From assembly GCA_964580215.1 (NCBI GenBank), contig CAZOJT010000001.1, positions 126,475 through 190,474 on the forward strand: a stretch of 64,000 nt of DNA, written 5' to 3'. Shown one piece after another: positions 45,167 through 62,093 of this stretch. Position 1 is the first letter of the stretch; every line of letters starts with the position of its first letter. Origin of the DNA: an uncultured Ignavibacteria bacterium. GTDB taxonomy: Bacteria > Zixibacteria > MSB-5A5 > SM1-73. The notes beneath the pieces were generated by a model, which worked only from the letters and a program-made list of their open reading frames with translations, was not told the origin of the DNA and searched no databases. The position numbers and the translations under genes were made by a program.

Positions 45167-45239
45167 ATATTATCAGCGTGTCTGTGAAGGCACGCCAACG
45201 GCGAGATCTAAGTAAGCCAAGCAAACCGCAAACAAACGG

Positions 45240-45524
45240 TTAAGCGACGTTTCTACGGAAAGTATTTATAGATATCCTTTCTATGCAAAAATCTTGTAAA
45301 GATAATTTTATCATTTACTATTTCAATACCTATTCTATTCTATAATCTCCTGCCCTGATACGATAAAATGTCTTATAACTTTTTAATTTTTCCAAACCTT
45401 TTATTTCTCTTAAACCTTTGGAACTCCTTACTTCATTTATAGCCTTCTTTACCCTCTTTAATAAACTTTTATCTTTGACTTTTCTTAAGTCTTTTTCAAA
45501 ACTCTCTTCAAAATAGATTTTCAC
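45240..45524 (-). pseudogene. RelE-type mRNA-interferase toxin, frameshifted near the C-terminus
   Basis: The ORF ends ...FYRIRAGDYRIE-stop. The expected continuation GIEIVNDKIIFTRFLHRKDIYKYFP is readable in the next frame after the gaatagaatagg slip. Confidence 0.5.
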
Positions 45525-46032: not shown

Positions 46033-48504
46033 CTAAGTTAAAGATTTCTCTGGTGCGGCTTTGCGTTTCTCCTTTCCCTTGGCTCTGATATCGAACCTCA
46101 ACTTCTTCTCCTCTTCCTTTCTGTCTATGGTTACCTCGCACCCCCCGGAGAACTGCCCCTTCAATATCTCCTCGGCTAAAGGATCCTCTACATGCTTCTG
46201 AATGGCCCTTCTCAATGGGCGGGCGCCGAAAGTGGGGCTGTATCCCTTTTCCGCCAAAAACTCTTTGGCTGGAGAGGTTAGCTCAAAGGTGATTCCTCTC
46301 TCTTCTAATCTCTTGGATACGTCCGAAAGAAGTATGTCGATAATCTGCATAACCTCCTTCATGCCCAGAGCATGGAATACTATGATCTCATCAATACGAT
46401 TCAAGAACTCCGGATTGAAAGTTCGTCTGGTCTCCTCCATAAGTTTCTGCTTCATCTGCTCGTAGGAGGATTTTGTATCCTCTTTCTGAAAGCCTAAGGT
46501 CTTTCCTCCCTTGATCTCCCTTGTTCCCAAATTCGAGGTCATAATCACCACGGTATTTTTAAAGTCAACCCTTCTGCCAAAGCTATCGGTTAAGGCGCCA
46601 TCATCGAACATCTGAAGAAGTATGTTAAAAACATCCGGGTGAGCTTTCTCTATCTCATCTAAAAGGACCACCGAATAAGGTTTTCGCCTCACCTTCTCGG
46701 TAAGCTGTCCTCCCTCCTCATAACCCACATATCCGGGTGGAGCGCCAATCAGACGGGAGACGGAGAACTTCTCCATATATTCGGACATATCGATTCTTAC
46801 CAAAGAGTTCTCATCTTCGAACAGTGATGCGGCCAAAGCCCGGGCTAACTCGGTTTTGCCCACTCCGGTTGGTCCCAGGAAGATGAAGGATCCGATGGGC
46901 CTTCGGGGATCTCCTAAACCTGCCCGATTTCGCCGGATGGCTTTGGAGATGACCCCTATGGCTTCCTCCTGCCCCACAATCCTTTTCTTCAGCTCCTCCT
47001 CCATTCGCAGAAGCTTCCTTGACTCTTTCTCCTCTAACTTGAACAGAGGGATTCCGGTCATCTTGGAGACCACGCAGGATACATCTTCAGCGGTCAAGGT
47101 GACCCGTTCCTTTCCTTTCCCTTCCTCCCAATCTCTTTTCATCTGCTCCAATTTTTCTCTTTTGATCTTCAGCTCATCCCGTAGTTGAGCCGCCCTCTCG
47201 AACTCCTGGTTTTTCACCGCCTTCTCTTTTTCCCGCTGAACTCCAACTATCTCCTGTTCCGTCTTTTCAAAAATCTCCGGGCGGGTGCAGGTGGCAAGAT
47301 GGATCCGGGAGCCAGCTTCATCTATCACATCGATAGCCTTATCCGGCTGAAACTTTCCAGTGATATATCTATCTGACAATTTCACCGCCGCCTCACTAGC
47401 CTCATCCGATATCTTTATCTTATGGTGTTCCTCATACCTGCTTCTTAACCCTTTTAGAATTTTTCTGGTATCCTCGGTGGATGGTGGATCCACCATGATG
47501 GTCTGGAAACGCCGCTCTAAAGCTCCATCCTTCTCGATGTATTTTCGGTATTCATTCAAGGTGGTGGCACCGATGCACTGGATCTCCCCCCGGGAAAGGG
47601 AGGGTTTGAATATGTTGGAGGCATCCAGGGAGCCTTCCGCTCCTCCCGCCCCCACGATGGTATGCAATTCATCCAGAAAGAGGATCACATCCTTGCAGTT
47701 TATGATCTCATTCATCACCGCCTTCATCCTCTCCTCGAACTGCCCCCGGTATTTAGTTCCTGCCACCAAAGCAGCCATATCCAGACAAACGATTCTTTTA
47801 TTCTCCAGGGTTTGAGGGACTTTGCCGGCTACTATCCTCTGCGCCAGACCCTCGGCTATGGCGGTTTTGCCCACTCCCGGCTCACCAATTAAAACCGGAT
47901 TGTTTTTCTTTCTTCGGGAAAGTATCTGGGAAACCCTTTCAATTTCGCTATCTCGACCGATGATGGGGTCCAGCTTCCCCCGGCGAGCCATCTCGGTTAG
48001 ATCTCTTCCAAAATGGTCTAAAGCGGGGGTTTTGCTTTTCTTTCTTTTTCTGGCATAAGAGGATGGCTTTCCACTTTCTATGTTTTTCAGCTCCTCATTC
48101 ACTTCCTTGTAATCCAAATCATACATGGAAAGAACCTGAGCCGCTACCCCCTCTTCATCCCTCAGTATGGCTAAAAGAAGATGCTCGGTATCGATGTCTT
48201 TTGATCTTAATGCGCGTGCCTCCTGTGCGGAGACCTCCAAAAGCTTTTTTGCTCTGGCGGTTAAGGGAAGCTGACCCATGGCCATGGTTCCACCGGAGGG
48301 CTGAACCACATCCTCAACCGACTGCCGCAACTCGTTTAAATCTATCCCTATGTTGACCAGAATCTCAATCGCCTTCCCCTCTCCCAGACGGAGCAGCCCC
48401 AAAAGAAGGTGCTCTGTGCCGATATAATCATGTTTGAGCCTGGCCGCTTCATCCCGGGCATATTCTATGGCCTTACGAGCCCTCTCCGTAAACATCTCAT
48501 TCAT
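46033..48504 (-). CDS. clpC: ATP-dependent Clp protease ATP-binding subunit ClpC (Clp_N x2, AAA1, UVR-like linker, AAA2)
   Basis: N-terminal repeats [35 protein letters not shown]. Walker A motifs [15 protein letters not shown] and [15 protein letters not shown]. 823 aa. Confidence 0.9.
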
Positions 48505-48663
48505 AGAAAACCTCCGCTCCGATTTCTACGTTGATCTGTCAAACCAAAAAAACTTCTCAGGGCTTTTCTGATCCGCCCATCTTCCTTCAACCTCTATTAA
48601 TACATTACGCAAAAAGACTCAAAATGTCAACTGCTTTGGGAAAAGCAACTATAAAAACTCTTT

Positions 48664-48937
48664 CATTTACTAAGAGGAGCAGGAAACAGTTTACATCTTA
48701 TTATTCGTATGAATGTGCGTATGCACTCATACGAGCTTCGCATTGATTTTTTCTCCCACACCTGTTTTGGGCTTGACTTGAAATTCGTATGAATGCATAC
48801 GCATCCCCCTTTAGTAAAGGGGGATTTAGGGGGATTTTCCAAGTTTCAAATGCGTCCCGCAAAATGCGGGACGAATCCCCCCTTCCCCCCCATTTTTTTA
48901 GGGGGGATGTAAACAATTATATGCTCCTCTTAGTAAC
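48664..48937. mobile_element. MITE-like element B, copy 1 (about 275 bp, TIR ttactaagaggagcaggaaacagtttacat)
   Basis: Terminal inverted repeats plus internal palindromes ttcgtatgaatgtgcgtatgcactcatacga and G-tract/C-tract hairpins. It sits between the mcsB stop and the clpC start. Confidence 0.65.
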
Positions 48938-48997
48938 ACAGCTTTTACGTAGACCGACTCGCTTGCTTTGTCTCCAGTGATTTTTTTTGGAAATCTA

Positions 48998-50041
48998 TTA
49001 CCCCAGTTTTGATCTGACCAACTCTGCCCTTATTTGATCCCTCTGGTTCGGCTCCATCCTCTTTTTAAAATATTTCTGCAGATGAGCAGGTTGAGTCAAA
49101 GCCAAAATCTCATTTACCTGAGAGAGGCTCACCATCTCCAAAACACCCATTCCGATTCCCAGCCTTATGGCGGAGAGCATATTCAAAACCTCCTCGGAGG
49201 TTAAGGTTCGGGCATATTTTAAGATCCCATAGGCGCGCCAGATTTTGTCCTCTATCTGTTCCTTAGCCTCACTGAACAGTCGCTTTCGGGCATTCTCCTC
49301 ATATTCTATTATCTGCTTTGTAACTCTCTCCAGGCTCTCCACGATATCCTCCTCAGACCTTCCCAGAGTGGTCTGATTGGAGACCTGAAACAGATTTCCC
49401 CACACATCTGAACCCTCTCCGTAAAAGCCCCTGACCACCAATCCCAGTTTGCTGATCTGGGAGATCACCTTCTCGATCTCCTGGGTCAATGCCAGTCCGG
49501 GCAGATGGATCAAGACCGATGCCCTCATTCCGGTTCCGGTATTGGTGGGACAAGAGGTAAGATAACCAAAGGTGGGATCGAAAGCAAACTCCAGGGACTT
49601 GGACAGCTCATCGTCTATATGATCCGCCATCTGAAACGCCTCCCTTATCTCCAGCCCCGAAGCCAGAGCTTGAATCCTTAAGTGGTCCTCCTCATTGATC
49701 ATCACGCCCACATTCCCTTCTTTTCCGATTAAAAGTGCAGAAAAATCTCTTAATTGAGTAAACTCCAGGCTGACTAAGTGTCTTTCCACCAGAAAGGACC
49801 GATCCAGATCATCCAGTTGGCTGCAATTCACAAATGTCCCCTGTCTCAAATCTGCGCTTTTCTTCACAGCGTTTTTGATAAAGGAGAGAATTCTTTCCCG
49901 CGCATCTGTATCGGCTCTGGAGGGAAAGGGGGAGTTTGCAATGTTGCGCGCCAGCCTCACCCTGGAGGATAAGACCACCTGCGAGTTGGAACCCTCCCCG
50001 GAAAGCCACACCGCTGGTTTTTTCGCCATCTGTTCAAACAT
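48998..50041 (-). CDS. mcsB: Protein arginine kinase McsB (ATP:guanido phosphotransferase)
   Basis: Phosphagen-kinase core GYLTSCPTNTGTGMRASVLIHLPGL. 347 aa. Confidence 0.85.
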   Translation of the reverse strand: MFEQMAKKPAVWLSGEGSNSQVVLSSRVRLARNIANSPFPSRADTDARERILSFIKNAVKKSADLRQGTFVNCSQLDDLDRSFLVERHLVSLEFTQLRDFSALLIGKEGNVGVMINEEDHLRIQALASGLEIREAFQMADHIDDELSKSLEFAFDPTFGYLTSCPTNTGTGMRASVLIHLPGLALTQEIEKVISQISKLGLVVRGFYGEGSDVWGNLFQVSNQTTLGRSEEDIVESLERVTKQIIEYEENARKRLFSEAKEQIEDKIWRAYGILKYARTLTSEEVLNMLSAIRLGIGMGVLEMVSLSQVNEILALTQPAHLQKYFKKRMEPNQRDQIRAELVRSKLG

Positions 50042-50066
50042 AATCTGATACCTTTTTGAATAAACT

Positions 50067-50567
50067 TCATTTTTTGGCAGCCAAAGCCTTTATTCGATCT
50101 CTGATCTGGGCGGCTTTTTCGAAATCTTCTTCTTCGATAGCTTTCCTCAACTTCTCTTGAAGCTTTGTTTCCTCCCACAAAGGTTTCATCACATTCCTGG
50201 TAGTGTGAGGGTATTTCCCCCGATGCTGGGTGGAACCGTGGATCTTTCTCAAAAGATCGTTAAGCTGGCTTTTGAAGGTAACGTAACAGTTCCCACATCC
50301 CAGACGCCCTGTTTTGGCGAAATCGGAGAAGCTCATCCCGCAGTCAGTGCAAACAACCTCGGACTCTTTGCTGGGCTTCTGCATCTTGGTCTGACTGAGC
50401 ATACTAGCTAAGAACTCAGCTAAGGGGAAGGGCACTCCCTCCAGAGGATTACGAAATCCCCTCTTCTCTGCACATTCCCGGCAAAGATTTAAAACCACCT
50501 TCTTGTTGTTGATCACCTCGGTCAGATGAACCGTAGCTTCTCTTTTCCCACAATCCTGACACAGCAT
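50067..50567 (-). CDS. mcsA: McsA (protein-arginine kinase activator; zinc-finger + C-terminal UVR motif)
   Basis: Cys pairs CQDCGK...CRECA and CTDCG...CGNCY. C-terminal UVR-like KLRKAIEEEDFEKAAQIRDRIKAL. Confidence 0.8.
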   Translation of the reverse strand: MLCQDCGKREATVHLTEVINNKKVVLNLCRECAEKRGFRNPLEGVPFPLAEFLASMLSQTKMQKPSKESEVVCTDCGMSFSDFAKTGRLGCGNCYVTFKSQLNDLLRKIHGSTQHRGKYPHTTRNVMKPLWEETKLQEKLRKAIEEEDFEKAAQIRDRIKALAAKK

Positions 50568-50635
50568 GTTATTCGCCTTTTACCTCATGTTTAGAGATGT
50601 CTTTAAAGAAACTATTTTAAAAGAACGATTGGAGT

Positions 50636-50706
50636 GTTCACCTTTAGGTGAACCAGGTTGCACTTCTATACTTTATAAATAATCTCAGGTCAAGCTAAAG
50701 CTTGAC
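50636..50706. promoter_or_regulatory. Two perfect palindromes (GTTCACC-TTTA-GGTGAAC and GTCAAGCT-AA-AGCTTGAC) upstream of mcsA-mcsB-clpC
   Basis: Seen directly at 50636-50653 and 50689-50706, in the 215-bp gap upstream of the operon. No ctsR gene is present. Confidence 0.35.
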
Positions 50707-50782
50707 ACTCCAGAACCCAGAACCCTTTTTTCAATCTGACTTTTTCAGAGATCTCTTTTTACCTCTCCTGAATCTTCAATTT

Positions 50783-51484
50783 TTATTTTGAACCCGGCAT
50801 CGCCTTGCCCTCAACCAAAGTGATTATCCGATGAGCTCTCTCTGCCAGAAGATGATTGTGCGTGGCGATAATAAAAGTCTGACCCTTCTTACCACTCAAC
50901 TCGGATATAAGATTATGTAACTCCTCTCCGGTTGCCCTGTCTAAGTTTCCGGAGGGCTCGTCTGCGATCACTATCTGAGGCTCATTGATCAATGCCCGCG
51001 CCACTGCCACCCTCTGCTGTTCCCCTCCGGACAGCTCTCCAGGCTTATGATAGGCTCTATCAGCAAGTCCCACCTCCGAAAGCAGTTGCGCTGCCTTCTT
51101 TCTAATTGAACTCATCTCCTCTCCGGCAATAAGTCGAGGCATCATCACGTTCTCCAGGGCGGAAAACTCCGGCAGAAGATGATGAAACTGAAACACAAAT
51201 CCTATGGTCTTGTTTCTGAAATGTGCCAGCTTTTTGTCGCTTAAGGCAAAGACGTCGGTGGAGTCCAATCTCACCTTTCCCTTTGTAGGTCGATCCAATG
51301 CTCCCAAGATGTGAAGCAGAGTGCTTTTCCCCACCCCGGATGCGCCCACCACAGATACTATCTCGCCTCGTCTTATCCCGATGTCCACTCCCTTTAATAC
51401 GTGAAGCGTTTCAGCACCCGTTTGAAAGCTCTTGTGGATGTCAACGCCTTCTAATACAATATCGTCGTCTCTGGTCTGTTTCAC
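50783..51484 (-). CDS. ABC transporter ATP-binding protein (LolD/FtsE/MacB-type ATPase)
   Basis: Walker A GASGVGKSTLLHIL, signature LSGGEQQRVAVARAL and Walker B IVIADEPSGNLD. Confidence 0.8.
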   Translation of the reverse strand: MKQTRDDDIVLEGVDIHKSFQTGAETLHVLKGVDIGIRRGEIVSVVGASGVGKSTLLHILGALDRPTKGKVRLDSTDVFALSDKKLAHFRNKTIGFVFQFHHLLPEFSALENVMMPRLIAGEEMSSIRKKAAQLLSEVGLADRAYHKPGELSGGEQQRVAVARALINEPQIVIADEPSGNLDRATGEELHNLISELSGKKGQTFIIATHNHLLAERAHRIITLVEGKAMPGSK

Positions 51485-51978
51485 AATCTTATTATATTTT
51501 TATTTTCGCCATTTTTTTCGCTTTATTTACCAACAGCATCAAACTTTGAGCATCCAATAACATTTTAGCTTGAAAAATGGATTTGTCAATAGAAAAGTGA
51601 ACTGAAAATGTAGATACCAAATACAAATCAGACACCCCCGAAAGGTTTACCCTTACGGGCTCACCAAAGGCGGGATGGATAATAACGTCTACAGGTAGCA
51701 GAAAATCCCTCACAGCAGATTAAGCAGATAAAAATCATCGGTATCAGCTTAATCCGTTTAATCAGCTGTGAGGCATTCTCCTGCTCCCCGATATGTTATC
51801 CTAACGGGGGCGCATGTCCTCCCCTCTGGGGATCTCCGTCATCCCACGACATTAGTCGAAGATCCCGCCGAAGGCGGTGATTGAAAACCCCGCCAGAGTG
51901 GGGCGGTATCAATAAAATGACGCCCATACAAAAATCAAACTTGAGATTGAATCCACCTTAAGCTATATTATAAAAGTT

Positions 51979-52013
51979 CCTCTTGGGTATCCGATATGTA
52001 TCTGGTCATTACA
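51979..52013. promoter_or_regulatory. Second copy of the conserved 35-bp element (see 23968-24002)
   Basis: tcctcttgggtatccgatatgtatctggtcattaca, then aagtgaactgaaaag and tttcgccattttttt. Confidence 0.4.
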
Positions 52014-52557
52014 AAGTGAACTGAAAAGTTTCGCCATTTTTTTCAATTTACCCCACAGGCTGAAGCTACGTTGCACACCCGGGTACTCCATTAGCAAAAA
52101 TATGGCGAAAAATTGTTGATTTTTGGAAGAAAATGGCTATGTTAAGGGCAATTTGTTGCCCGACAGAACTTTTAGGTCACAGAAGTTTTCGGACATAAGA
52201 TAAGGAGGTAACTACTTGGAAATTCATTTTGGAACTGGCATAAGAGCTCCGAACCCCACCCTGTGGAGCGGGATAGAATGTATCCTGAGTTTAATAGTGT
52301 TTAAAGGTCAAACATCAATTTTAAGGAGAAAGCGTCAAGATGAATTCATAAAAAGGTTGAGATGTTCGGTTAACGTTGGCGAAGTCCGAATTTGGATCCA
52401 TAGGACTGGTATCGATGCTGGAGGCTCGAAGTTGGAAGCTGAAACACCTAATTGGACAAAGAAATCTTCGAGTGTCGAGCTTCGAAAGACAAACTTCGTT
52501 ACGAATCTCGACAACAACATCCGAGCATCGAGCCTTATCAAAGGAGGTGATTAAAAT

Positions 52558-52917
52558 ATGCCAACCATAGTTCATTTTGAAATCCCGGCAGACGATCCTG
52601 AGCGGGCAAAGAAATTCTACACCGATCTTTTTGGCTGGAAAATCGAAAAAACACCAGAAATGGATTACTGGATGATTGCCACCAGCGGTGAAAAGGCAGT
52701 GGATGGTGGTATGATGAAGAGACAAGAACCGCATCAACCAATTACCAACTACATTGATGTCCCTTCCATAGATGAATATGCCGCCAAAGTGGAAAAGCTC
52801 GGTGGCAAAGTAGTTATGCCCAAAACGGCTGTGCCAACTATGGGATACTTCGCTGTATGTCTTGATACCGAGAACAATGTCTTTGCCCTGTGGCAATCGG
52901 ACAAAAGCGCAAAGTAA
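52558..52917 (+). CDS. VOC-family (glyoxalase/bleomycin-resistance fold) protein
   Basis: 119 aa. The N-terminus IVHFEIPADDPERAKKFYTDLFGWK is typical of VOC. Strong RBS AGGAGGTG. Confidence 0.8.
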   Translation: MPTIVHFEIPADDPERAKKFYTDLFGWKIEKTPEMDYWMIATSGEKAVDGGMMKRQEPHQPITNYIDVPSIDEYAAKVEKLGGKVVMPKTAVPTMGYFAVCLDTENNVFALWQSDKSAK

Positions 52918-53073
52918 CACCCGGCGGGGTTCGGAAGCAGTAGTATTCCCAGAGTTTCAGTTGCGTCGGGAAATTGTTTTCCCGACGCAATGCCCGAATG
53001 ACGCAAACTCAGACATATTTAGATGTCAGGTGTGAAGCAGATATGGGCTGTTGCATGAAGAGGGTGTCTCAGC

Positions 53074-54273
53074 ATGAAAAGATATGAAAGAATAATATCG
53101 ACTATAAAAGAAGAAACTGGTCTCCTTAAAATGATTCAATCGGGGCTTAAACCGGAAGAGATAAAACAGGCAGTTATTGAATCGCTTGAACCCTATTTTG
53201 TGAATAAAGATGTTCTTGCGGAGCTTGCCACAGAAGCACTTGTTGGCGACAGTATAAACCTTATCAGGCTTCAGAAAAGCCCATGGTTCTTTCGCAGATT
53301 TGAGAAATGCCTTTCCACCTATCGCAACGCAAAAAGTCGAGATGCGCGGAGTAGTTTTGAATGTTGCGCGGCGTGGCGCTCCGGCATTAACGAAAGCATA
53401 TCGAAGTTTTGGAGCGTTCTCCATCTGGAAGTTGATAAGAATACTCTTGAAATTGAGGAATTCTTGCAGGAGTGTCTCAGTAATATCGGTGATATAATTG
53501 AAGGAATAACAAAACCGTATTTAAAAGCCCTTCTTCACCAAATGAGAATTGCCGAAGGGGTCAAAACTGCTTTTGGGCACATCGACTCTTTGGATTTGGG
53601 CACAACCGTGAATGAGTTAATCCAAGAAAGCGGTTATCCGGAACTTTTCATGCCGCCTCCGTGGAAAATCCGACTCAATCAATGGCGAAACATCGCCTAC
53701 CACAGCACGGCCGGAGTCGAGGACAATCTCATTATTTGTTGGTATGGAAAATCACCCAACATTAGGACTGTTCGCTTTCCCAGGAACGAACTTCTGGAGG
53801 CTGTCCACACTATTTTTCATATATTCAAGACTTTGAAACTGGCTGACAGTATCTTCTTCATGGATAACGTTAAAGAAATCCGAAAGCTTCTTCCGCACGG
53901 CGATATAAGACCGGAGGCGGAATTTCTGAATTTTGCCGCGGGCTTAGCGTCTCAAGGGTTCGAAATAGTCGAGTATGTTAAGGCGCCCAATGAAGCAAGA
54001 CTCATTGTAAAGGACATCTCTAGCTTAAACCCAAATGAACGCCGATCGCACGCTTCACAGTTCTTATTCCCCCTTTGGCTAGTCACTGGCTCAAGGGAAG
54101 TAATAGTGGAGTACCGAGAGAGGGACAACACGCCCAATGTCAGGGTGAGCACTGACTCCGCCACGTGCCAAAAGATCTATGACGGAGAACTAGACCCGTT
54201 GACTTTGGCAAAAACAATGAAGATTGTGAAGCTGAAGAGAAACAATGCTTCGACACCACGGGATGGTAGTTAG
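53074..54273 (+). CDS. Hypothetical 399-aa protein, no recognisable domain (GC-rich relative to neighbours)
   Basis: Long clean ORF with no motif I can place. It is followed 150 nt later by a GIY-YIG nuclease gene on the same strand. Confidence 0.45.
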   Translation: MKRYERIISTIKEETGLLKMIQSGLKPEEIKQAVIESLEPYFVNKDVLAELATEALVGDSINLIRLQKSPWFFRRFEKCLSTYRNAKSRDARSSFECCAAWRSGINESISKFWSVLHLEVDKNTLEIEEFLQECLSNIGDIIEGITKPYLKALLHQMRIAEGVKTAFGHIDSLDLGTTVNELIQESGYPELFMPPPWKIRLNQWRNIAYHSTAGVEDNLIICWYGKSPNIRTVRFPRNELLEAVHTIFHIFKTLKLADSIFFMDNVKEIRKLLPHGDIRPEAEFLNFAAGLASQGFEIVEYVKAPNEARLIVKDISSLNPNERRSHASQFLFPLWLVTGSREVIVEYRERDNTPNVRVSTDSATCQKIYDGELDPLTLAKTMKIVKLKRNNASTPRDGS

Positions 54274-54424
54274 CCGCGAGGCGCCTTTTTGTGGGACTTC
54301 ATGTAACCTTGGCAAGTCTTCCGCAAAAACGCAAAGAGAGAAAACGAGAAGTCTGCTGCTTGGCCCTCAGCCAAACGAGTGTTTCTTCAATCGTTGGGCC
54401 GAAAGCTGATTTCAGGAAGGATTC

Positions 54425-54880
54425 ATGTTTACAGATCAACAAATACGGCGATACCTTCGCAGAATGGAAAGCAAGCTAATGACGGAAGCAAACAGAAGAA
54501 AGGTAAGGCTATCGACTGACTGGGTAAACGAACGTCCTGACAAACCTGGCGCCTATATTGCGTTTGAGGGTCGGGTCGTAGTTTACGTCGGAGAAACCGG
54601 GAACCTTCGAGCACGCATGAGAGATCTGCTTGACTCGCGCCGCCATAGTCTCCGCAGAAACATTGGAAAGCATAACTTCTCAGGGGACAAAGGCTATCGG
54701 GATGCCACCACTCGAAGGAAGTTTCCAAAACACATTGAGAACAGTGTCGTCAGATGGCTCGAGAAAAAGGTTAGCATCTCACTAGTGCCAATGAAGCTAG
54801 GGCGAAAAGAACTGGAGGAGAAGCTTGTTCATAAACATGATCCAAAATACAACAAAAGGCGCCAACGAAAGACACGCTAG
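54425..54880 (+). CDS. GIY-YIG nuclease-domain protein (151 aa)
   Basis: GAYIAFEGRVVVYVGETGNLRARMRDL matches the GIY-(10)-YVG..N...R core. The C-terminal tail is basic. Confidence 0.6.
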   Translation: MFTDQQIRRYLRRMESKLMTEANRRKVRLSTDWVNERPDKPGAYIAFEGRVVVYVGETGNLRARMRDLLDSRRHSLRRNIGKHNFSGDKGYRDATTRRKFPKHIENSVVRWLEKKVSISLVPMKLGRKELEEKLVHKHDPKYNKRRQRKTR

Positions 54881-55033
54881 AAAAACTTCAACAGTTCGCC
54901 GAGCTCCCGGTCCTGAGCGTATCGAAGCATGTAGAGGGGGAGACAGGTGCGCGAGGTAAAGATAGGGAAACTTGACTTTCTGGCACAAGCGATTTGTCTT
55001 TGTGAAAACTACTTGCCCGGAGGAGTCCAGGAA

Positions 55034-56372
55034 TATGCAAATGTACGAGATAATCAGCAAGAAAAGAGACAAAAAAAAACTTACCCAGGAGGAGATAGAG
55101 TATTTCGTCTCAGGTTATACCAAAGGTCAAATCCCCGACTATCAGGCATCCGCGCTTCTGATGGCTATTTTCCTAAACGGCATGGATGCGGAGGAGACCT
55201 TCCACTTGACCTTATCCATGATGAAGTCCGGCAGGGTTCTTGATCTGAGCTCTGTTCGGGGAATGAAGGTTGACAAGCACAGCACTGGAGGAGTGGGGGA
55301 TAAGGTCTCGTTGATACTTGCCCCTCTGGTCGCCTCATGCGGGGTTAAGGTTCCCATGATCTCCGGAAGGGGACTGGGTCATACCGGCGGAACTTTGGAC
55401 AAATTGGAGTCCATTCCCGGATTCCGTACAGATCTATCTTTAACAAGATTTGTAAGAATGCTCTCAGACGTCGGTGTCTGCATGATCGGACAGACAAAAG
55501 AGATTGCACCTGCCGACAGAAAAATGTATGCTCTAAGAGACGTAACCGCTACGGTGAGCTCCATACCTCTGATCGCCTCCAGCATCATGAGCAAAAAATT
55601 AGCCGAGGGGGCAGATGGGTTTGTATTCGATGTCAAGGTGGGAAACGGAGCCTTCATGCAAAAAAAGGATGAGGCTGTGTTTCTGGCAAAGAGTTTGATC
55701 CAGATAGCAAAAAGATTCAAAAAGAAAGCGGTGGCTTTGATAACTAACATGAATGAACCGCTAGGCGAGGCGGTGGGGAACTCCATTGAGGTGATGGAAG
55801 CCATCCAGGCTTTGAAAGGAAAAGCTCCACAGGATCTTATGGAAGTTACCCTGAGCTTGAGCGCACACATGCTTGTTTTAGGGAAAAAGGCGAAGAATCT
55901 GAAGGATGCAGAAAAGAAGTTAAGTCAAGCCATAGAAACCGGTAAGGCACTGGATAAATTTGAAGAGATGATCAAAAAACAGGGTGGAAATCCAAAAGTG
56001 TTATTTGACTTTGGGCTTTTTCCTTGGGTGAAATTCAAGCTTTGGGTAAACTCAAACCGAGAGGGATACGTTCAATCCATAGACACCCGGAAGATCGGAC
56101 TTTCAGCAATGAGGTTGGGTGCTGGCAGAGAGAAGATGGATAGCCCAATTGATCCAGGCGTTGGTTTTTTAATCAAGAAAAAGGTGGGAGATTCTGTCAG
56201 AAAAAGGGAGCCCCTGGCTGTGGTCTTTGCTAACAAACTGAAAAAAGCCAGGCAAGCTTGTTCTGAGATCAGGCAGGCCTATCAGATAACCAAAAGAAAA
56301 ACACCCAGGTTGAAAAAGATTTTATTGATTGTTGATGAAAACGGGACCAGGAGATCAAAGGACGGCTTTTAG
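55034..56372 (+). CDS. deoA: Pyrimidine-nucleoside / thymidine phosphorylase
   Basis: MQMYEIISKKRDKKKLTQEEIEYFV...KHSTGGVGDKVSLILAPLVA...SGRGLGHTGGTLDKLESIPGF. The ORF-track start at 54972 is probably an upstream extension. An ATG at 55034 follows GGAGGAG. Confidence 0.85.
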
Positions 56373-56426
56373 TTATCCCCGCCCAGGGCCAAATTTATGG
56401 TTATGGAGAGCCAGAATCTAACTTAT

Positions 56427-56572
56427 TAAGGAGAGCATATAATTGTTTACATCCCCCCTTTAGAAAAGGGGGGAAGGGGGGATTCGTATGAATGTGCGTA
56501 TGCACTCATACGAGCATACGCACATTCATACGAATAATAAGATGTAAACTGTTTCCTGCTCCTCTTAGTAAG
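56427..56572. mobile_element. MITE-like element B, copy 2 (internally deleted, about 145 bp)
   Basis: Same ends as the copies at 48664 and 63526: ..gagagcatataattgtttacatcccccc... and ...atgtaaactgtttcctgctcctcttagtaa. Confidence 0.6.
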
Positions 56573-56639
56573 TTAAGTTCTGGCTCTTTCCCCCTTCACA
56601 TTTCCTCTGTTTTTCTGTAAGGCAATCTTCTGTCCTTTT

Positions 56640-56720
56640 TCTACCTCACGCCTTTTGTTCCCCTTCAGGGTGAATCCTTCAGGGTGAACCCCTCTCCATG
56701 AAATGGAGAAGGGGATAGGG
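56640..56720. repeat. Repeat family D copy (ccttcagggtgaatccttcagggtgaacccctctccatgaaatggag)
   Basis: Matches 61650-61700 and 20085-20110. Confidence 0.5.
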
Positions 56721-56985
56721 AGTGAGGATTTTTGAGTTGTAGGTCGGATATGTCTCGCCAGAGGCGGGACTATCCGACATTTGTTCTGTCCGAAACCACC
56801 GCCTTTGGCGGGGATTTCGGACCTACAATTGACTCAAATTTGAACCAAATCATTAAATTATTAAAATAAAATGTCGAAATTCTTATGGAAAGTTAAAAAT
56901 TTCTGCAACATCCCCATATTCACAACGTATAGTATTCTAAGTTAGAATAGTATAGATTATAATAACTCTGGGAGAGAGCGGCTTT

Positions 56986-57525
56986 ATGACCAAAAATGAG
57001 CTTGTGGTATTGGGGCTTTTAGACCAGACGCCCATGCACGGCTATCAGCTCTATCATGAAATAGAGAGAACCAGAATGGAGCATTGGGCTCAGGTCAACT
57101 TGGCATCCATATACAATACCCTCAATAGATTAGAGCAAAAGGAGATGATAGAGCCAAAAAAGGAAAAGCCCGGACGGATGCCAGAGCGAAGTGTATATCA
57201 CATTACTAAAAAAGGAAAAGAGAAATTAGCCTCATTGGTGGAGCAAACCCTGAAGGCCAGTCAAATACCTCAAAGCAATTTCGTGGTGGGGGTTGCTTTT
57301 ATCAAAGGTTTGTCAAAAAAGAAAGCTCTGGATTGTCTTAAATTTAAGGAGGAGGTTTTCCAGAAAACCTTAAAGCACCTACTAAAAGCCGACAAAGATG
57401 AAGGAGCGAACATGCCCTTCCATTGGAAATTTATTCTGCACAGTGGAATAGATCACATGAGATTGGAGATCAAGAGAATAAACGATCTGATAAAACAGAT
57501 ACAAAAGATGCGAAACTGGAAATAA
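56986..57525 (+). CDS. PadR-family transcriptional regulator
   Basis: wHTH LGLLDQTPMHGYQLYHEIERTRMEHWAQVNLASIYNTLNRLEQKEMIE with a C-terminal dimerisation helix. Confidence 0.8.
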   Translation: MTKNELVVLGLLDQTPMHGYQLYHEIERTRMEHWAQVNLASIYNTLNRLEQKEMIEPKKEKPGRMPERSVYHITKKGKEKLASLVEQTLKASQIPQSNFVVGVAFIKGLSKKKALDCLKFKEEVFQKTLKHLLKADKDEGANMPFHWKFILHSGIDHMRLEIKRINDLIKQIQKMRNWK

Positions 57526-57553
57526 TCTTAGAAGCGAAAGAGAGGAAGAGGTA

Positions 57554-58480
57554 ATGAAAAAAGTGATTTTATGGCTGATTCTGGTAGCCATTATCGGCTT
57601 TTTGGGCTATAGAGTCTGGGTGGCTTATCAGCGAAGCCAGATAAAAGAAGTTGAAAAGACAGAAGAAATCCCGCCGGTTCAAATCGAGGTGGTTAAAACC
57701 AGCCCTCTTACTGAATCATTAAATCTGACCGGGGATGTCAAGGGGATAGAGGAAATAAACGTTTTCCCCAAGGTTTCGGGAAAGTTAGTGGAGATGAAGA
57801 TCAGAGAGGGAGACCGGGTCAAAAAAGAACAGGTCTTAGCCATCATTGACAGAGATGTGGAGGGTATGAGATTCGAGCAAGCGGAGGTGACCTCCCCGGT
57901 AAGAGGAATTGTGGGAACAGTCTATCTGGACAAGGGAGCAAGGGTTAACCCGCCTGAGCCGGGACCAAGCATGGGAACTGCCTTGTTGAGAATTGTAAAC
58001 ATGGATACAGTAAAAGTGGTGGTGTGCGTTATCGAAAAAGACCTGTCCAAGATAAAGCTTCATCAGAAAACCCGGGTCTTGGTGGCTGCCTATCCTGGCC
58101 AGATGTTCTCCGGAAAGATAACTTTGATCAGCCCCACCATAAACCAAATGACCAGAACTGCTTCGGTTGAGATCACCATTCCCAACCGAAATCATAAGCT
58201 CAAACCCGGTATGTTTGCTGAAGTAGAGATCATAATCAGAAAGCAAGACGACGCCATCTTAATACCTGCCTACGCTGTGCTTGAGCAAAGCAGTAACAAA
58301 AAAGTGTTCACTGTGGTGGATGGGAAGGCGGTGATGGGGCTGATCGAAGTAGGGATAGCTCAGGGTGACTTGGTGGAAGTAAAAAGTGGGCTTGATGCGG
58401 GGGATACTCTCATCGTGGCGGGTCACCATCAAGTCTCAAGTGGTGACTTAGTCAGTATAGTTAAGGGGGGTGCCGAATAA
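57554..58480 (+). CDS. Efflux RND transporter periplasmic adaptor subunit (membrane fusion protein)
   Basis: N-terminal TM, a lipoyl/biotinyl-like hairpin (VFPKVSGKLVEMKIREGDRVKKEQVLAII) and a beta-barrel domain. Its stop overlaps the permease start (ATAATG). Confidence 0.85.
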   Translation: MKKVILWLILVAIIGFLGYRVWVAYQRSQIKEVEKTEEIPPVQIEVVKTSPLTESLNLTGDVKGIEEINVFPKVSGKLVEMKIREGDRVKKEQVLAIIDRDVEGMRFEQAEVTSPVRGIVGTVYLDKGARVNPPEPGPSMGTALLRIVNMDTVKVVVCVIEKDLSKIKLHQKTRVLVAAYPGQMFSGKITLISPTINQMTRTASVEITIPNRNHKLKPGMFAEVEIIIRKQDDAILIPAYAVLEQSSNKKVFTVVDGKAVMGLIEVGIAQGDLVEVKSGLDAGDTLIVAGHHQVSSGDLVSIVKGGAE

Positions 58481-61400
58481 TGTTTCTGCCCAAATTCGCC
58501 ATCAAAAGACCGGTTACGGTCTTCATGATCTTCATTATGCTGGTCATCTTGGGGATAATTTCCTTCACCCAGTTGTCCATCGACCTTATGCCGGATGTCT
58601 CCTTCCCCATGGTAATGGTGGTGACCAGTTATCCGGGTGCAGGTCCCTCCGAGATAGAAACCATGGTCGCCAAACCCCTGGAGGGATCTTTGGCCGCCAC
58701 CAAAGATGTGAAGAATATCTTCTCCTATTCTCTGGAGGAGGTTTGTGCCATAATGATGGAGTTCGAATGGGGAACGGATATGGACGTGGCTGCCTCAGAC
58801 GTGAGAGAGAAGGTGGATTTGGTTCGCTGGCGTCTTCCCGAGGACGTAGAGAACCCCACCATCATAAAATTCGATCCCTCCATGATGCCCATTCTGTTTT
58901 TAGGCTTGTCCGGTGAGAGTCAAACCCCGGCGGAATTACGCTATTTAGCTGAGGAGATCATACAACCAAGACTGGAGAGACTGGATGGAGTAGCTGCAGC
59001 TATGCCCATAGGGGGATTGGAGAGAGAGATAAAGGTTGAGCTTAATCGAGCCAGATTGGAAGCTTTGGGAATCTCTGTGAGTCAGATCATCGGAGCCATC
59101 GGAGCCTCCAATCTGAATTTGCCCGGTGGACATCTTAAGTTTGGGCAGAAGGATTTTCTGGTTAGAACAACCGGAGAATTTAGCCAACCTTCTCAATTGG
59201 AAAATGTGATCATCTCCAATCATCAAGGTATTCCTATTTATCTAAAAGATGTGGCTGCAATCAGAGATGATTTTAAAGAGCAGACCAGCGTGGTCAGAGT
59301 GGGTGGAGGGCCCGGCATTATGTTGCTGGTGCAAAAGGAATCCAGGGCTAATACGGTGAAGGTGGCTGATAAAGCCAAAAAAGCTTTAAGAGATATTCAA
59401 AAGGTCCTTCCTTCCGATGTGGAGATTAACATAATTATGGATTCCTCCAAATACATAAAGCTCTCCGTGGGCAATGTGGAAAAATCAGCGTTGGAGGGGG
59501 GACTTTTAGCCATAATTATAATCTTGTTGTTTTTGAGAAGCTTCTCCAGTACCCTTATCATCTCGGTTGCCATTCCCATATCGGTTTTAGTCACTTTGAT
59601 TTTGCTTTACTTTGGTAAGATGACTTTGAACATCACCACTATGGGTGGTTTGGCTTTGGGAATTGGCAGGTTGGTGGATGACGCCATTGTAGTCTTAGAG
59701 AATGTTTTCCGACACCGACAGCAGGGCGAAAGACCCAAAGAGGCGGCGGTGATTGGCGCCAGCGAGGTCTCCACTGCGGTGTTAGCTGCCACCGTCACCA
59801 CCATCATAGTCTTCATCCCCATATTTTTCGTAGGGGGAATGGTGGGAATTCTCTTCCGCCCCATGGGTTACACCGTGGTCTTATCTTTAGCCGCTTCTTA
59901 CTTTGTGGCTATGGTCTTGATTCCCCTTTTAACCTCTAAGTTTTTGAAGGTGGAAAGAGTAGCAGTGTTAGGGAATCCGAAAAAGTTCACCATCGGGGGG
60001 AGGCTATTCAACTTAGGTCAGAAAACCTTTGATGCCATCGATGAGCAATATCATAGAACGGTAAGCTGGGCAATAACACATAAGAAAACCGTAGTCTTGG
60101 GGGTATTGGGGGTCCTTCTTGTCACCCTGCCCCTGTTAAAGTTCATAGGATCCGAGTTTACGCCTGAAACAGATGAAGGGCAGTTTGAGATTTCTGTCAA
60201 AATGCCCGTGGGGACAGAACTGAAACAGACCGAGAAAGTCTTGGTTCAGATCGAAAATATCGTAATTGAGAACGTACCCGAGTTAAACACAATGATGGTT
60301 AGAGGAGGAATTGAAGGAAAAGGGATAGCCGCACTCTCGGCTGTGTTCCAGGATATAACCGGTCCGCATGCCGCCACCGTTCAAATCCGCTTGGCCGATC
60401 GAGTCGAGCGAAAGCGTTCCATGTTCGAAATCATGGAGCTTCTACGTGGTAAGCTAAAGGACATTCCAGATGTGAATTTCAATATCAGAGCCAGTGGAAT
60501 GATGTCAAGGATGACCAGCTTTGGCGGAGCCGCCGCTCCTATTGTGGTGGAGATAAGAGGCTATGATCTGGAAACCGCACGGAGTTTGGCGGTCAAAGTC
60601 AAGGAGATACTGGAGGCAACACCCGGAAGCAGAGATGTAAGAATACAGCGTGAGGAAGGATTACCTGAACTGCAGATCAAAATCGACCGGGATCGGGCGG
60701 CCGCCCTGGGCTTAAATTTGGCTCAAATCGCCCGAACCATTCAGACCAATGTGGACGGGACCATTGCCTCTTTGTTCAGGGATCCAGAATTAGGCAAGGA
60801 ATATAATATTTTAGTTCAATTAAGAGAAGAAGACAGAAGGAATCTTTTGGACTTAGACCGAATCTTTATTACCTCTTATTCAGGCAAACAGATTCCTCTT
60901 TCCAATGTGGCTGAGGTGGTCAAAGCCGAAGGTCCGGTCAAAATCGATCGAAAGAATCAGGAGAGGATGCTTTTAGTTACCTCTCAGGCTTATGGTCGAC
61001 CCGCAGGGACTGTGGCGGCTGAGGTGGAGGACATGATCAAGAAGAGCTTAAGGGTGCCGCAGGACTTCTCGGTGGAAATGACAGGAAGCTATGAGGATCA
61101 GCAGGAATCATTTAAAATATTGATCTTAGCTTTGATTTTAGCCATTGTTTTAATCTACATGATCTTAGCCGCCCAGTTTGAATCTCTATTTGATCCGTTT
61201 ATAGTGATGTTCTCCGTTCCCTTAGGATTCATTGGGGTGATCTGGGGTCTGTTTTTAACCGGGCACACCTTCAGCATTCTTTCCTTTGTGGGGATGATCA
61301 TGATGGTTGGAATTGTGGTATCCAATGCCATACTTTTGGTGGACTACACCAACATCTTAAGGAGACGAGGGATGGAGCTTCATGAGGCGGTGGTCCAGGC

Positions 61401-61623
61401 GGGCAGAACCCGTCTGCGTCCCATTCTGATGACCTCCTTCACCACCATGCTGGCTTTGGTTCCTATGGCTTTGGGATTAGGAGAGGGTGGCGAGATCTAC
61501 TCTCCTATGGCAGTGGCGGTTATCAGCGGTCTTTTGGTCTCCATGGTGCTTACTCTGGTCTTTATCCCTACTTTATATACCATCTTTGAGGAGAGGCTGA
61601 AAAGAAAAATCTTTGTGCAATGA
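58480..61623 (+). CDS. Efflux RND transporter permease (AcrB/HAE family)
   Basis: 1047 aa, 12 TM with two large periplasmic loops. The N-terminus KFAIKRPVTVFMIFIMLVILGIISFTQL is typical of AcrB. Confidence 0.9.
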   Translation: MFLPKFAIKRPVTVFMIFIMLVILGIISFTQLSIDLMPDVSFPMVMVVTSYPGAGPSEIETMVAKPLEGSLAATKDVKNIFSYSLEEVCAIMMEFEWGTDMDVAASDVREKVDLVRWRLPEDVENPTIIKFDPSMMPILFLGLSGESQTPAELRYLAEEIIQPRLERLDGVAAAMPIGGLEREIKVELNRARLEALGISVSQIIGAIGASNLNLPGGHLKFGQKDFLVRTTGEFSQPSQLENVIISNHQGIPIYLKDVAAIRDDFKEQTSVVRVGGGPGIMLLVQKESRANTVKVADKAKKALRDIQKVLPSDVEINIIMDSSKYIKLSVGNVEKSALEGGLLAIIIILLFLRSFSSTLIISVAIPISVLVTLILLYFGKMTLNITTMGGLALGIGRLVDDAIVVLENVFRHRQQGERPKEAAVIGASEVSTAVLAATVTTIIVFIPIFFVGGMVGILFRPMGYTVVLSLAASYFVAMVLIPLLTSKFLKVERVAVLGNPKKFTIGGRLFNLGQKTFDAIDEQYHRTVSWAITHKKTVVLGVLGVLLVTLPLLKFIGSEFTPETDEGQFEISVKMPVGTELKQTEKVLVQIENIVIENVPELNTMMVRGGIEGKGIAALSAVFQDITGPHAATVQIRLADRVERKRSMFEIMELLRGKLKDIPDVNFNIRASGMMSRMTSFGGAAAPIVVEIRGYDLETARSLAVKVKEILEATPGSRDVRIQREEGLPELQIKIDRDRAAALGLNLAQIARTIQTNVDGTIASLFRDPELGKEYNILVQLREEDRRNLLDLDRIFITSYSGKQIPLSNVAEVVKAEGPVKIDRKNQERMLLVTSQAYGRPAGTVAAEVEDMIKKSLRVPQDFSVEMTGSYEDQQESFKILILALILAIVLIYMILAAQFESLFDPFIVMFSVPLGFIGVIWGLFLTGHTFSILSFVGMIMMVGIVVSNAILLVDYTNILRRRGMELHEAVVQAGRTRLRPILMTSFTTMLALVPMALGLGEGGEIYSPMAVAVISGLLVSMVLTLVFIPTLYTIFEERLKRKIFVQ

Positions 61624-61644
61624 TAGAGAGACTATTGAAAAACT

Positions 61645-61705
61645 TCATTAGGCAGGGCTGAATGCCCTTCAGGGTGAATCCTTCAGGATGAACCCTGCCC
61701 TATGG
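61645..61705. repeat. Repeat family D copy downstream of RND permease
   Basis: ggcagggctgaatgcccttcagggtgaatccttcaggatgaaccctgccc hairpin. Confidence 0.5.
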
Positions 61706-61805
61706 GTGATGAGACATTGTTGCCCATAGGGGCGGGAATTTATCCTGCCCCGAAGTGGGGTTTTTGAACACGCCCTAAAAACCGCAGAACAAAGGATAAA
61801 TCACG

Positions 61806-62093
61806 ATGAAACTAATCTTTTTGATATTCAACAGCCCCTTAGAGCCTGATGTGAAGGATCTTTTAAAAAAGGCTGAAGTGGCTCATTATACCCGCTGGGA
61901 AAAGGTCAAAGGAGTGGGCGAAACCGGTCCGCACTTCGACGATGAGGTCTGGCCATCGGTGAATATAGCCCTGATGTTTTCTTTGGAAAACGAAAAGAAA
62001 AACGAAGTAGCTGAGGGTGTGCGAAAAATCAGAGAGCAGTTTCCCGATGAGGGAATACGCATGTTGGTCTTGCCACTGGAGGAAATAGTGTAA
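61806..62093 (+). CDS. Small hypothetical protein (95 aa) inside the RND operon
   Basis: ORF with RBS-like aaaggataaatcacgATG between permease and TolC. No motif recognised. Confidence 0.35.
   Translation: MKLIFLIFNSPLEPDVKDLLKKAEVAHYTRWEKVKGVGETGPHFDDEVWPSVNIALMFSLENEKKNEVAEGVRKIREQFPDEGIRMLVLPLEEIV

What the first reader, a model, noticed from the sequence alone, without database searches (positions are those of the whole stretch)
52920..54900. GC-shifted two-gene module: unknown 399-aa protein + GIY-YIG nuclease - candidate undescribed system
The two same-strand genes 53074-54273 and 54425-54880 look more GC-rich than their neighbours, which suggests horizontal acquisition. They lie between the repeat-rich non-coding tract and deoA. 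The second has the GIY-YIG endonuclease core (GAYIAFEG-RVVVYVGETGNLRARMRDL) and a basic tail. The first has no motif I can assign. A large unknown sensor or partner followed by a small nuclease effector is a recurrent layout of phage-defense or abortive-infection systems. I cannot match it to a described system from sequence alone.
Basis: inference. Interest (0 to 1): 0.6.

Follow-up and report, generated by a model that had tools for sequence, protein, structure and literature searches.

The report
Two unlinked nuclease genes, one new HEPN
The two genes are real accessory genes of a Zixibacteria genome, but they are not a conserved two-part system: one is a small UvrC-like GIY-YIG DNA nuclease, and the other belongs to an undescribed family with the fold and catalytic motif of HEPN RNases, whose closest relatives often sit next to restriction systems.

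Summary
Both ORFs exist as described: A at 53074-54273 (399 aa) and B at 54425-54880 (151 aa). Both are under purifying selection. The GC shift is not real: A is 0.446 and B 0.479, against a window gene mean of 0.448 +/- 0.038. Only the dinucleotide signature is unusual (95th percentile).

Synteny shows a discrete accessory cassette (53051-54903). It is shared by three Zixibacteria lineages and replaced by other genes in relatives.

Outside that clade the two families are never linked. None of 55 genomes with an A homologue has a B homologue within 8 kb, and none of 80 B loci has an A homologue. Neither family has any other recurrent partner.

Five of seven close non-Zixibacteria A homologues lie next to RM, McrBC or helicase genes, and two A-like genes are phage-borne.

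Best reading: two independent single-gene nucleases in a small variable slot, with A a candidate stand-alone HEPN defence RNase. Interest is moderate to low.

The parts
53074..54273 (+). Gene A: a 399-aa protein of an undescribed family. It has an N-terminal helical region, a central HEPN-like helical bundle and a C-terminal alpha/beta domain.
53686..53703 (+). Codons for R205-N206-I-A-Y-H210, an R-N-x3-H (Rx4H) motif of HEPN type. It is the most conserved feature of the family.
   Evidence: R205 in 233/233, N206 in 232/233 and H210 in 232/233 full-length members sharing 22-68% identity. E143 and G176 are also at 100%.
53911..54231 (+). C-terminal alpha/beta domain of A (about residues 280-386; predicted order helix, 2 strands, helix, 2 strands, helix) with conserved QGF, D314, R323, H326 and Q329. 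Its role is unknown; a sensor or dimerisation role is inferred only.
54274..54424 (+). 151-nt A-B spacer. There is no translational coupling. It is about 61-67% identical to the spacer of the L150 cassette. A purine-rich stretch (AGGAAGG) precedes the B start codon (my reading of the sequence).
   Evidence: Sequence; alignment; sliding identity. The terminator and promoter scan was uninformative. No Rfam match.
54425..54880 (+). Gene B: a 151-aa stand-alone GIY-YIG nuclease of Pfam family PF20815, closest to the UvrC N-terminal domain, with a basic C-terminal tail.
53051..54903 (+). The A-B cassette as a unit: the block shared with a second Zixibacteria lineage (L150-L152) at 74.8% nucleotide identity. 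Homology stops about 23 nt outside each gene, and the flanks differ on both sides.
   Evidence: blastn; context. A third lineage, L163, has glyoxalase-A-start of B.
52960..54961 (+). The segment that differs from the relatives sharing the window's left flank (L143, L147). Those genomes carry a 118-aa membrane protein plus a 187-aa lipoprotein here (L143), or a lipoprotein plus remnants (L147).
   Evidence: Homology with L143 and L147 ends at 52936/52959 and resumes at 54962-54964. Gene tables. The proteins of the slot do not match the A or B profiles.
52558..52917 (+). Left flank: a glyoxalase/bleomycin-resistance-fold gene. It is not part of the cassette.
   Evidence: Pfam PF00903 and PF22677. 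96% amino-acid identity in L143 and L147.
55035..56372 (+). Right flank: pyrimidine-nucleoside (thymidine) phosphorylase, a core gene conserved in Zixibacteria.
   Evidence: Pfam. Homologues are named Zixibacteria thymidine phosphorylase. Synteny.

Best explanation
The region is a small variable slot of a Zixibacteria chromosome, between the ClpC-McsB-McsA-LolD-glyoxalase block and the deoA-PadR-RND block. It holds two independent single-gene nucleases, not a two-component system.

Gene B is a stand-alone UvrC-like GIY-YIG DNA endonuclease with a complete catalytic set.

Gene A founds an undescribed family. Its core is a HEPN-type helical bundle carrying a nearly invariant R-N-x3-H motif.

By analogy with HEPN toxins and Abi proteins (inferred, not shown), A would dimerise so that two motifs form a metal-independent RNase site. 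It would stay latent, perhaps held by its own N- and C-terminal domains, and would cleave RNA when an invader is sensed. This would make it a stand-alone abortive-infection or defence type RNase.

The A-B adjacency arose once in a Zixibacteria ancestor, or was passed among Zixibacteria, and has been inherited as a block. It is not required by either family.
For: No linkage outside the clade:
- 0 of 55 A loci carry a B homologue.
- 0 of 80 B loci carry an A homologue.
- Neither family has a recurrent partner by all-against-all BLAST of neighbours.
- The +1 neighbours of A are heterogeneous.

The pair is limited to three related lineages in the same neighbourhood. The spacer is 151 nt with no coupling.

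B diverges at its own tempo. dS is 0.54 for B, against 1.50 for A and 1.51 for deoA.

A as HEPN:
- The AF2 model has pLDDT 89.4.
- R205, N206 and H210 are conserved in 232-233 of 233 members.

Defence or mobile context of A:
- A lies next to N6_N4 MTase plus R.TdeIII (L007).
- Two MTases, Csa1, a BrxC/D-like ATPase and ResIII (L153).
- McrB and McrC (L156).
- N6_Mtase and a large helicase (L158).
- MTases and a helicase-PLD protein (L159).
- Integrases, PIN, AAA_21 and MTases among the neighbours in 55 genomes.
- A-like genes lie beside the integrases of a temperate Terrisporobacter phage and in a Vibrio inovirus.

B as GIY-YIG.

Accessory status.
Against: - No activity is shown.
- The defence association is anecdotal, not a statistic. 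Among the 55 genomes, many neighbours are housekeeping genes.
- No PADLOC model matches A or B.
- The pair is kept together, spacer included, in three lineages diverged to about 72-75% nucleotide identity. It is present or absent as a unit, which a functional coupling would also explain.
- The locus sets come from pattern-seeded scans and short contigs, so some linked cases could have been missed.
Confidence: 0.62

Rival explanations
1. A and B form a true two-gene defence module in Zixibacteria. A (HEPN) and B (GIY-YIG) would act together, for example one sensing or guarding the other, giving RNA- and DNA-directed arms.
For: - The block of A, spacer and B is conserved as a unit in three diverged lineages, with different outer flanks.
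- It is absent as a unit from relatives.
- Both genes are under purifying selection.
- In other lineages the gene next to A is often a DNA-restriction module, most often just downstream in the same orientation. B could be the local equivalent.
Against: - No co-occurrence in 55 A loci and 80 B loci from other taxa.
- The 151-nt spacer gives no coupling.
- The synonymous divergence of A and B differs.
- All three linked cases lie in the same chromosomal neighbourhood of one phylum, so simple descent explains them.
- No PADLOC match.
Confidence: 0.15
2. A is a PrrC/RloC-like guard: a latent HEPN RNase that associates with whatever restriction module lies next to it and fires when that module is inhibited by a phage. 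B is then just one of many neighbouring DNases.
For: Five of seven close non-Zixibacteria A homologues directly flank RM, McrBC or helicase-nuclease genes of different types, on the same strand with gaps of about 110-210 nt. The HEPN motif is conserved.
Against: - Most of the 55 genome loci have no recognisable restriction gene within two genes.
- A lacks the ATPase domain of PrrC and RloC (established knowledge of those families; no P-loop family hit).
- Clustering of unrelated defence genes in islands explains adjacency without any interaction.
Confidence: 0.12
3. Neither gene has a defence role. A is a non-catalytic helical protein or a housekeeping RNA-processing factor, and B is a DNA-repair or structure-specific nuclease. 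They sit in a recombination-prone slot by chance.
For: - The slot is a mosaic breakpoint. The left flank resembles L143/L147 and the right flank resembles L145/L150.
- Other occupants of the slot are a lipoprotein, a membrane protein and a Usp protein.
- B is closest to UvrC.
- No PADLOC hits.
Against: - Both families have a patchy distribution across many phyla, with no fixed neighbourhood.
- Near-invariance of R-N-x3-H argues for catalysis.
- Phage-borne copies exist, and integrase, RM and TA genes are among the neighbours.
Confidence: 0.11

Closest known systems
HEPN toxins of HEPN-MNT toxin-antitoxin pairs (PDB 7ae2, 8xdj, 5yep; SO_3166 type)
   Different: - A is three times larger, with extra N-terminal helices, a predicted beta-hairpin insertion just after the motif and a C-terminal alpha/beta domain.
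- There is no MNT or other conserved neighbour.
- There is no detectable sequence similarity.
Single-gene abortive-infection HEPN proteins (AbiD/F, AbiJ, AbiU2, AbiV; the HEPN domain of AbiA, PDB 8oz7)
   Different: No match to any Abi model in PADLOC or Pfam. The domain architecture differs. No phenotype is known.
PrrC / RloC anticodon nucleases embedded in restriction-modification loci
   Same: They are HEPN-type RNases found beside restriction modules. Several close A homologues are placed this way.
   Different: A has no ABC-ATPase or P-loop domain. The RM association is not constant. The target is unknown.
UvrC N-terminal GIY-YIG domain / Cho; Pfam PF20815 GIY_YIG_2
   Different: B is a 151-aa stand-alone protein. 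It lacks the UvrB-binding, RNase H-like endonuclease and HhH domains of UvrC (established knowledge; NCBIfam scores of 17-20 bits against cut-offs above 285). It has a roughly 35-aa N-terminal helix and a roughly 60-aa insertion with its own conserved DSRxHxLRRNIG motif.
GIY-YIG restriction and defence nucleases (R.Eco29kI, T4 EndoII, PD-T4-3)
   Different: There is no adjacent methyltransferase, no PADLOC match and no DNA-recognition domain in the 151-aa form. Some 213-aa relatives have a C-terminal extension that looks like a helix-turn-helix.

Membership tests
HEPN superfamily (for gene A) | All-alpha up-down helical bundle of the HEPN fold | tested here: met
HEPN superfamily (for gene A) | Conserved Rx4-6H motif with a polar residue after the Arg | tested here: met
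   R205-N206-x3-H210 is conserved in 232-233 of 233 members.
HEPN superfamily (for gene A) | Sequence-profile membership in a described HEPN family (Pfam or NCBIfam) | tested here: not met
   No HEPN family appeared among the hits of P0001 or of 110 family members at E<=1. The PDB profile search found none.
HEPN superfamily (for gene A) | Metal-independent RNase activity that depends on the Arg and His | not testable with these tools
   This needs biochemistry with R205A and H210A mutants.
GIY-YIG nuclease superfamily / PF20815 (for gene B) | Profile match above the curated threshold | tested here: met
   PF20815 at 25.1 bits against a cut-off of 22.4. PF01541 at 18.7 bits is below its cut-off of 22.6. 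Most homologues carry PF20815.
GIY-YIG nuclease superfamily / PF20815 (for gene B) | Catalytic residues: the GIY Tyr, the YIG Tyr, Arg, the metal-binding Glu and Asn | tested here: met
   Y44, Y54, R64 and E129/E131/E132 are invariant and N143 is nearly invariant in 43 sequences. The GIY/YIG/Arg segment and the helix holding the Glu and Asn align to the T. maritima UvrC GIY-YIG domain.
GIY-YIG nuclease superfamily / PF20815 (for gene B) | GIY-YIG alpha/beta fold | tested here: met
UvrC / Cho excinuclease (for gene B) | Full-length architecture and equivalog score | tested here: not met
   NCBIfam UvrC and Cho models score 17-20 bits against cut-offs of 285-818. B is only 151 aa.
Conserved two-gene (sensor plus effector) defence system | Co-occurrence of both families as neighbours across unrelated taxa | tested here: not met
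   0 of 55 A loci and 0 of 80 B loci. Linkage occurs only in three Zixibacteria lineages in the same neighbourhood.
Conserved two-gene (sensor plus effector) defence system | Match to a described system | tested here: not met
   PADLOC-DB 2.0 gives no hit for A or B at E<=1. DefenseFinder and later model sets were not available.
Type II toxin-antitoxin pair | Small cognate partner, tightly spaced or overlapping, co-conserved | tested here: not met
   The spacer is 151 nt. No recurrent small neighbour exists for A or B. The largest partner cluster is 4-5 of 80 loci, mostly from near-identical contigs.
Horizontally acquired island | Deviant GC or GC3 | tested here: not met
   GC 0.446 and 0.479 against 0.448 +/- 0.038. 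The block is at the 69th percentile.
Horizontally acquired island | Presence/absence polymorphism against conserved flanks, or a deviant oligonucleotide signature | tested here: met
   A 2.0-kb replacement relative to L143 and L147, with sharp homology breaks. Dinucleotide delta* is at the 95th percentile. No integrase, tRNA or flanking repeat was found beside it.

The most novel reading that the evidence does not exclude
The A family would be a widespread, undescribed class of HEPN 'guard' RNases. Each would pair with whichever DNA-restriction module lies next to it: type II RM, McrBC, helicase-nucleases or, in Zixibacteria, the small GIY-YIG nuclease B. The window's cassette would then be a true two-layer RNA-plus-DNA defence unit with a stand-alone GIY-YIG restriction enzyme.
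Probability: 0.12. Interest if true: 0.65.

Novelty: new variant of a known kind. Interest (0 to 1): 0.33.

Why it matters
The proposed two-gene system does not hold up, so it should not be catalogued as a new defence system on this evidence.

What remains useful is gene A. It marks a family of about 580 clusters at 50% identity, spread over many bacterial phyla and a few phages. It is absent from Pfam, NCBIfam, PADLOC and PHROGs. It carries a nearly invariant HEPN-type catalytic motif in a new three-part architecture, and it often sits next to restriction systems.

That makes it a concrete, cheaply testable candidate for a new stand-alone HEPN RNase of the abortive-infection or defence type.

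The locus also shows how a variable slot in Zixibacteria exchanges small cassettes.

Tried and rejected
- **Family libraries for A.** Pfam, NCBIfam, PADLOC and PHROGs scans gave only sub-threshold noise, such as HGTP_anticodon and rbfA. Scanning all 110 family members at E<=1 showed no recurring informative family.
- **Structure searches for A.** The PDB sequence-profile search gave noise only. Foldseek against the PDB found nothing below E 0.1. The afdb50 fold library was not available.
- **Hidden partners.** All-against-all BLAST of +/-3 neighbours found none for A or B. phmmer and hmmsearch on the +1 neighbours of A found none.
- **L005.** It first looked like an alternative context for an identical A gene, but it is the same sequence on a truncated contig.
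- **Slot proteins of relatives.** The 187-aa lipoprotein, 118-aa membrane protein and Usp protein are unrelated to A and B.
- **Mobile-element records.** Plasmids hold no homologue of A or B. Phage records hold no B. Viral contigs hold no B and one A.
- **Vibrio inovirus.** The 'endonuclease' next to the A-like gene is not a GIY-YIG protein.
- **Other scans.** The promoter and terminator scan was at chance level. Rfam on 51300-55200 found nothing credible.
- **Literature.** One full-text search for HEPN, GIY-YIG and 'defense system' listed eight papers, none of whose titles or abstracts describes such a pair; I did not read them. PF20815 is not mentioned in the library.
- **Bacteroidota forms of A.** The extra C-terminal extension of about 140 aa has no Pfam match.
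Full report
**What is there.** The window holds two same-strand ORFs at the stated coordinates. A lies at 53074-54273 (399 aa) and B at 54425-54880 (151 aa), with 151 nt between them.
- Upstream lie a glyoxalase-fold gene (52558-52917) and, on the other strand, LolD-McsA-McsB-ClpC.
- Downstream lie a pyrimidine-nucleoside phosphorylase (55035-56372), PadR and an RND efflux operon.
- The closest homologues of the phosphorylase are named as Zixibacteria proteins, so the window comes from a Zixibacteria genome.
- Identical sequence occurs on several metagenome contigs from one sample series.

**Composition.** The GC shift is not there.
- Gene GC is 0.446 (A) and 0.479 (B), and GC3 is 0.474 and 0.490. 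The 44 window genes average 0.448 +/- 0.038 GC and 0.49 +/- 0.065 GC3.
- The 1.85-kb block is at the 69th percentile of GC among windows of the same size. Its dinucleotide signature is at the 95th percentile.
- The truly GC-poor genes are at 44090-45166 and 25458-28649.

**Are the genes accessory? Yes, by synteny.**
- Related Zixibacteria keep ClpC-McsB-McsA-LolD on one side and deoA-PadR-RND on the other. The slot between them differs.
  - L143/L144: glyoxalase, a 118-aa membrane protein and a 187-aa lipoprotein.
  - L147: a broken glyoxalase and the lipoprotein.
  - L148: a Usp gene and the lipoprotein.
  - L145: unrelated genes.
- None of these loci encodes anything matching the A or B profiles.
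- Against L143 and L147, nucleotide homology stops at window 52936/52959 and resumes at 54962-54964. A segment of about 2.0 kb is therefore swapped.
- The locus is also a mosaic. The left flank is 87-96% identical in protein to L143/L147. The RND pump on the right is 75% identical to L145/L150 and only 33-38% to L143/L147/L148.

**Is the pair linked elsewhere? Only inside this clade.**
- The closest B homologue (80% identity) lies in L150-L152, directly after a 392-aa A homologue (68% identity). A lipoprotein gene and deoA follow it.
- The shared block is window 53051-54903, at 74.8% nucleotide identity including the spacer.
- A third lineage, L163 (a 2-kb contig), shows glyoxalase, A (68% identity), a gap of about 160 nt and the first 41 residues of a B homologue.
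- Beyond these, linkage disappears.
  - None of 55 species-level genomes with an A homologue has a B-family ORF within +/-8 kb (hmmsearch E<=1e-3). These genomes include Thermodesulfobacteriota, Acidobacteriota, Bacteroidota, Clostridia, Pseudomonas and Halomonas.
  - None of 80 metagenome loci with a B homologue has an A-family ORF. Of these, 45 have at least 1.4 kb upstream and 37 have at least 1.4 kb downstream.
- The nearest non-Zixibacteria A homologues (61-66% identity) have other neighbours.
- B homologues at 55-61% identity likewise lack A (L062-L066).
- Neither family has any other recurrent partner.
- Caveats: the locus sets were seeded by short peptide patterns, and many contigs are short.

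**Gene B.**
- It passes Pfam PF20815.
- Its family profile aligns to the T. maritima UvrC GIY-YIG domain over the GIY and YIG tyrosines, the Arg, and the helix that carries the Glu and Asn. These residues are invariant or nearly so in 43 homologues.
- It is far too short to be UvrC or Cho, and it scores far below their NCBIfam cut-offs.
- The family is absent from the plasmid and phage collections and from viral contigs.
- Its neighbours are varied. They include XRE-type HTH proteins, Schlafen/AlbA_2, integrases, resolvases, GNATs and some RM genes.

**Gene A.**
- No library recognises it, and all source names are 'hypothetical protein'.
- The family is sizeable, with 578 representatives at 50% clustering and E<=1e-3. 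Length is uniform at about 390-400 aa. A form of about 540 aa, seen in the Bacteroidota loci L023-L034, has an extension that matches nothing.
- The AF2 model is confident (pLDDT 89.4, pTM 0.84). It shows N-terminal helices, a long-helix bundle (about residues 90-265) and a C-terminal alpha/beta domain.
- Independently, the most conserved feature of 233 full-length members (22-68% identity) is W-R205-N206-x3-H210. R, N and H are present in 232-233 of them, and E143 and G176 are invariant.
- An Rx4-6H motif with a polar residue after the Arg is the hallmark of HEPN RNases. I take this from established knowledge (Anantharaman et al. 2013) and did not re-read the paper.
- I therefore assign A to the HEPN superfamily as a new family and architecture, with about 70% confidence. 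The catalytic mechanism (dimeric composite RNase site) is inferred.

**Context of the A family.**
- Close homologues lie next to restriction-type modules of different kinds, on the same strand and most often with the module immediately downstream.
  - N6_N4 methylase plus R.TdeIII (L007).
  - Two methylases, Csa1, a BrxC/D-like ATPase and a ResIII helicase (L153).
  - McrB and McrC (L156).
  - An N6 methylase and a 1195-aa helicase (L158).
  - Dam-like and N4/N6 methylases and a helicase-PLD protein (L159).
- Among 150 neighbours in the 55 genomes, integrases (4), PIN (3), AAA_21 (3) and several methylases appear alongside ordinary housekeeping genes.
- A-like genes also sit beside the integrases of a temperate Terrisporobacter phage and in the accessory region of a Vibrio inovirus. 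One lies on an IMG/VR contig. None is on 72,556 plasmids.
- This pattern fits a horizontally moving, stand-alone defence or exclusion gene. It is an association, not a measured enrichment.

**Selection and tempo.**
- Between the window and L150, dN/dS is 0.13 for A, 0.19 for B and 0.10 for deoA, so both genes are functional.
- Synonymous divergence is 1.50 for A and 1.51 for deoA but only 0.54 for B. Nucleotide identity is 83-92% across 54536-54885 and about 70% in A.
- B thus seems to have a partly separate history, or a nucleotide-level constraint. I cannot explain this.

**Verdict.**
- The most likely picture is two autonomous nuclease genes in one variable slot. B is a PF20815 GIY-YIG DNase. 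A is a new HEPN-type family and a reasonable candidate for a single-gene abortive-infection or defence RNase.
- A functional A-B coupling restricted to Zixibacteria, or a PrrC-like guard role of A towards neighbouring restriction modules, is not excluded (together about 25-30%).
- Interest is moderate to low. Uncharacterised HEPN families near defence genes are common, but this one is well delimited and easy to test.

Noticed in passing
window 44090-45166 (-), 25458-28649 (+), 37822-38256 (+): These are the genuinely GC-deviant genes of the window: GC 0.302 (GC3 0.221), 0.356 and 0.37, against a gene mean of 0.448. The area around 43500-45400 also has the most deviant dinucleotide signature. 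They are better candidates for recent horizontal acquisition than the finding itself.
   Followed up: no
window 48665-48855 and 63601-63791 (inverted); partial copies at 56482-56571 and 19878-19911: An interspersed intergenic repeat of about 190 nt, 97% identical between two inverted copies. Shorter fragments of 34-58 nt lie in other intergenic regions. It contains internal palindromes and looks like a MITE or REP element.
   Followed up: partly
window 54536-54885 vs L150: Gene B is much less diverged than its neighbours between two Zixibacteria lineages. dS is 0.54, against 1.50 for A and 1.51 for deoA. Nucleotide identity is 83-92%, against about 70% in A. The cause could be separate transfer, gene conversion or a nucleotide-level constraint; it is unexplained.
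   Followed up: partly
window 48000-62000 vs L143, L145, L147, L148, L150: The locus is a recombination mosaic. The left flank (McsB, McsA, LolD, glyoxalase) is 87-96% identical to L143/L147. The RND pump on the right is 75% identical to L145/L150 and only 33-38% to L143/L147/L148.
   Followed up: partly
window 51485-52557: This is a non-coding tract of about 1.07 kb between LolD and the glyoxalase gene. The 220 nt just upstream of the glyoxalase are about 91% conserved in L147. An ORF there (52216-52554, 112 aa), called as a gene on JGI contigs, has no Pfam match. Only a few short direct and inverted repeats were found, so it is not strongly 'repeat-rich'. There is no Rfam match. It could be a conserved leader or regulatory RNA.
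   Followed up: partly
L161 (Vibrio inovirus PQ189351.1) 4769-5506 and 5605-6711: The A-like gene of this filamentous phage (RNISNH motif) is preceded by a 245-aa protein annotated as 'endonuclease'. That protein carries an R-H-N-F-A-A-H string, which may be a second HEPN-type motif. It has no Pfam match and is not a GIY-YIG protein.
   Followed up: partly
L023-L034 (Bacteroidota loci) and P0192, P0211, P0223, P0232, P0233: A-family members of about 530-550 aa carry an extra C-terminal extension of about 140 aa that matches no Pfam family. In the genome loci this long form is seen in Bacteroidota.
   Followed up: partly
L068, L075, L089, L092 (next to B homologues): Four B-family loci share a neighbouring protein of about 157-171 aa with no Pfam match. 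It may be a clade-specific partner of some B homologues.
   Followed up: partly
P0151, P0152, P0154, P0163 (Saprospiraceae and others): Some B-family members are 213 aa long, with a C-terminal extension of about 60 aa that looks like a helix-turn-helix (GKSIAEIASIFGRNQGAINSRLNKI). This recalls the nuclease plus DNA-binding-domain layout of GIY-YIG homing endonucleases.
   Followed up: no
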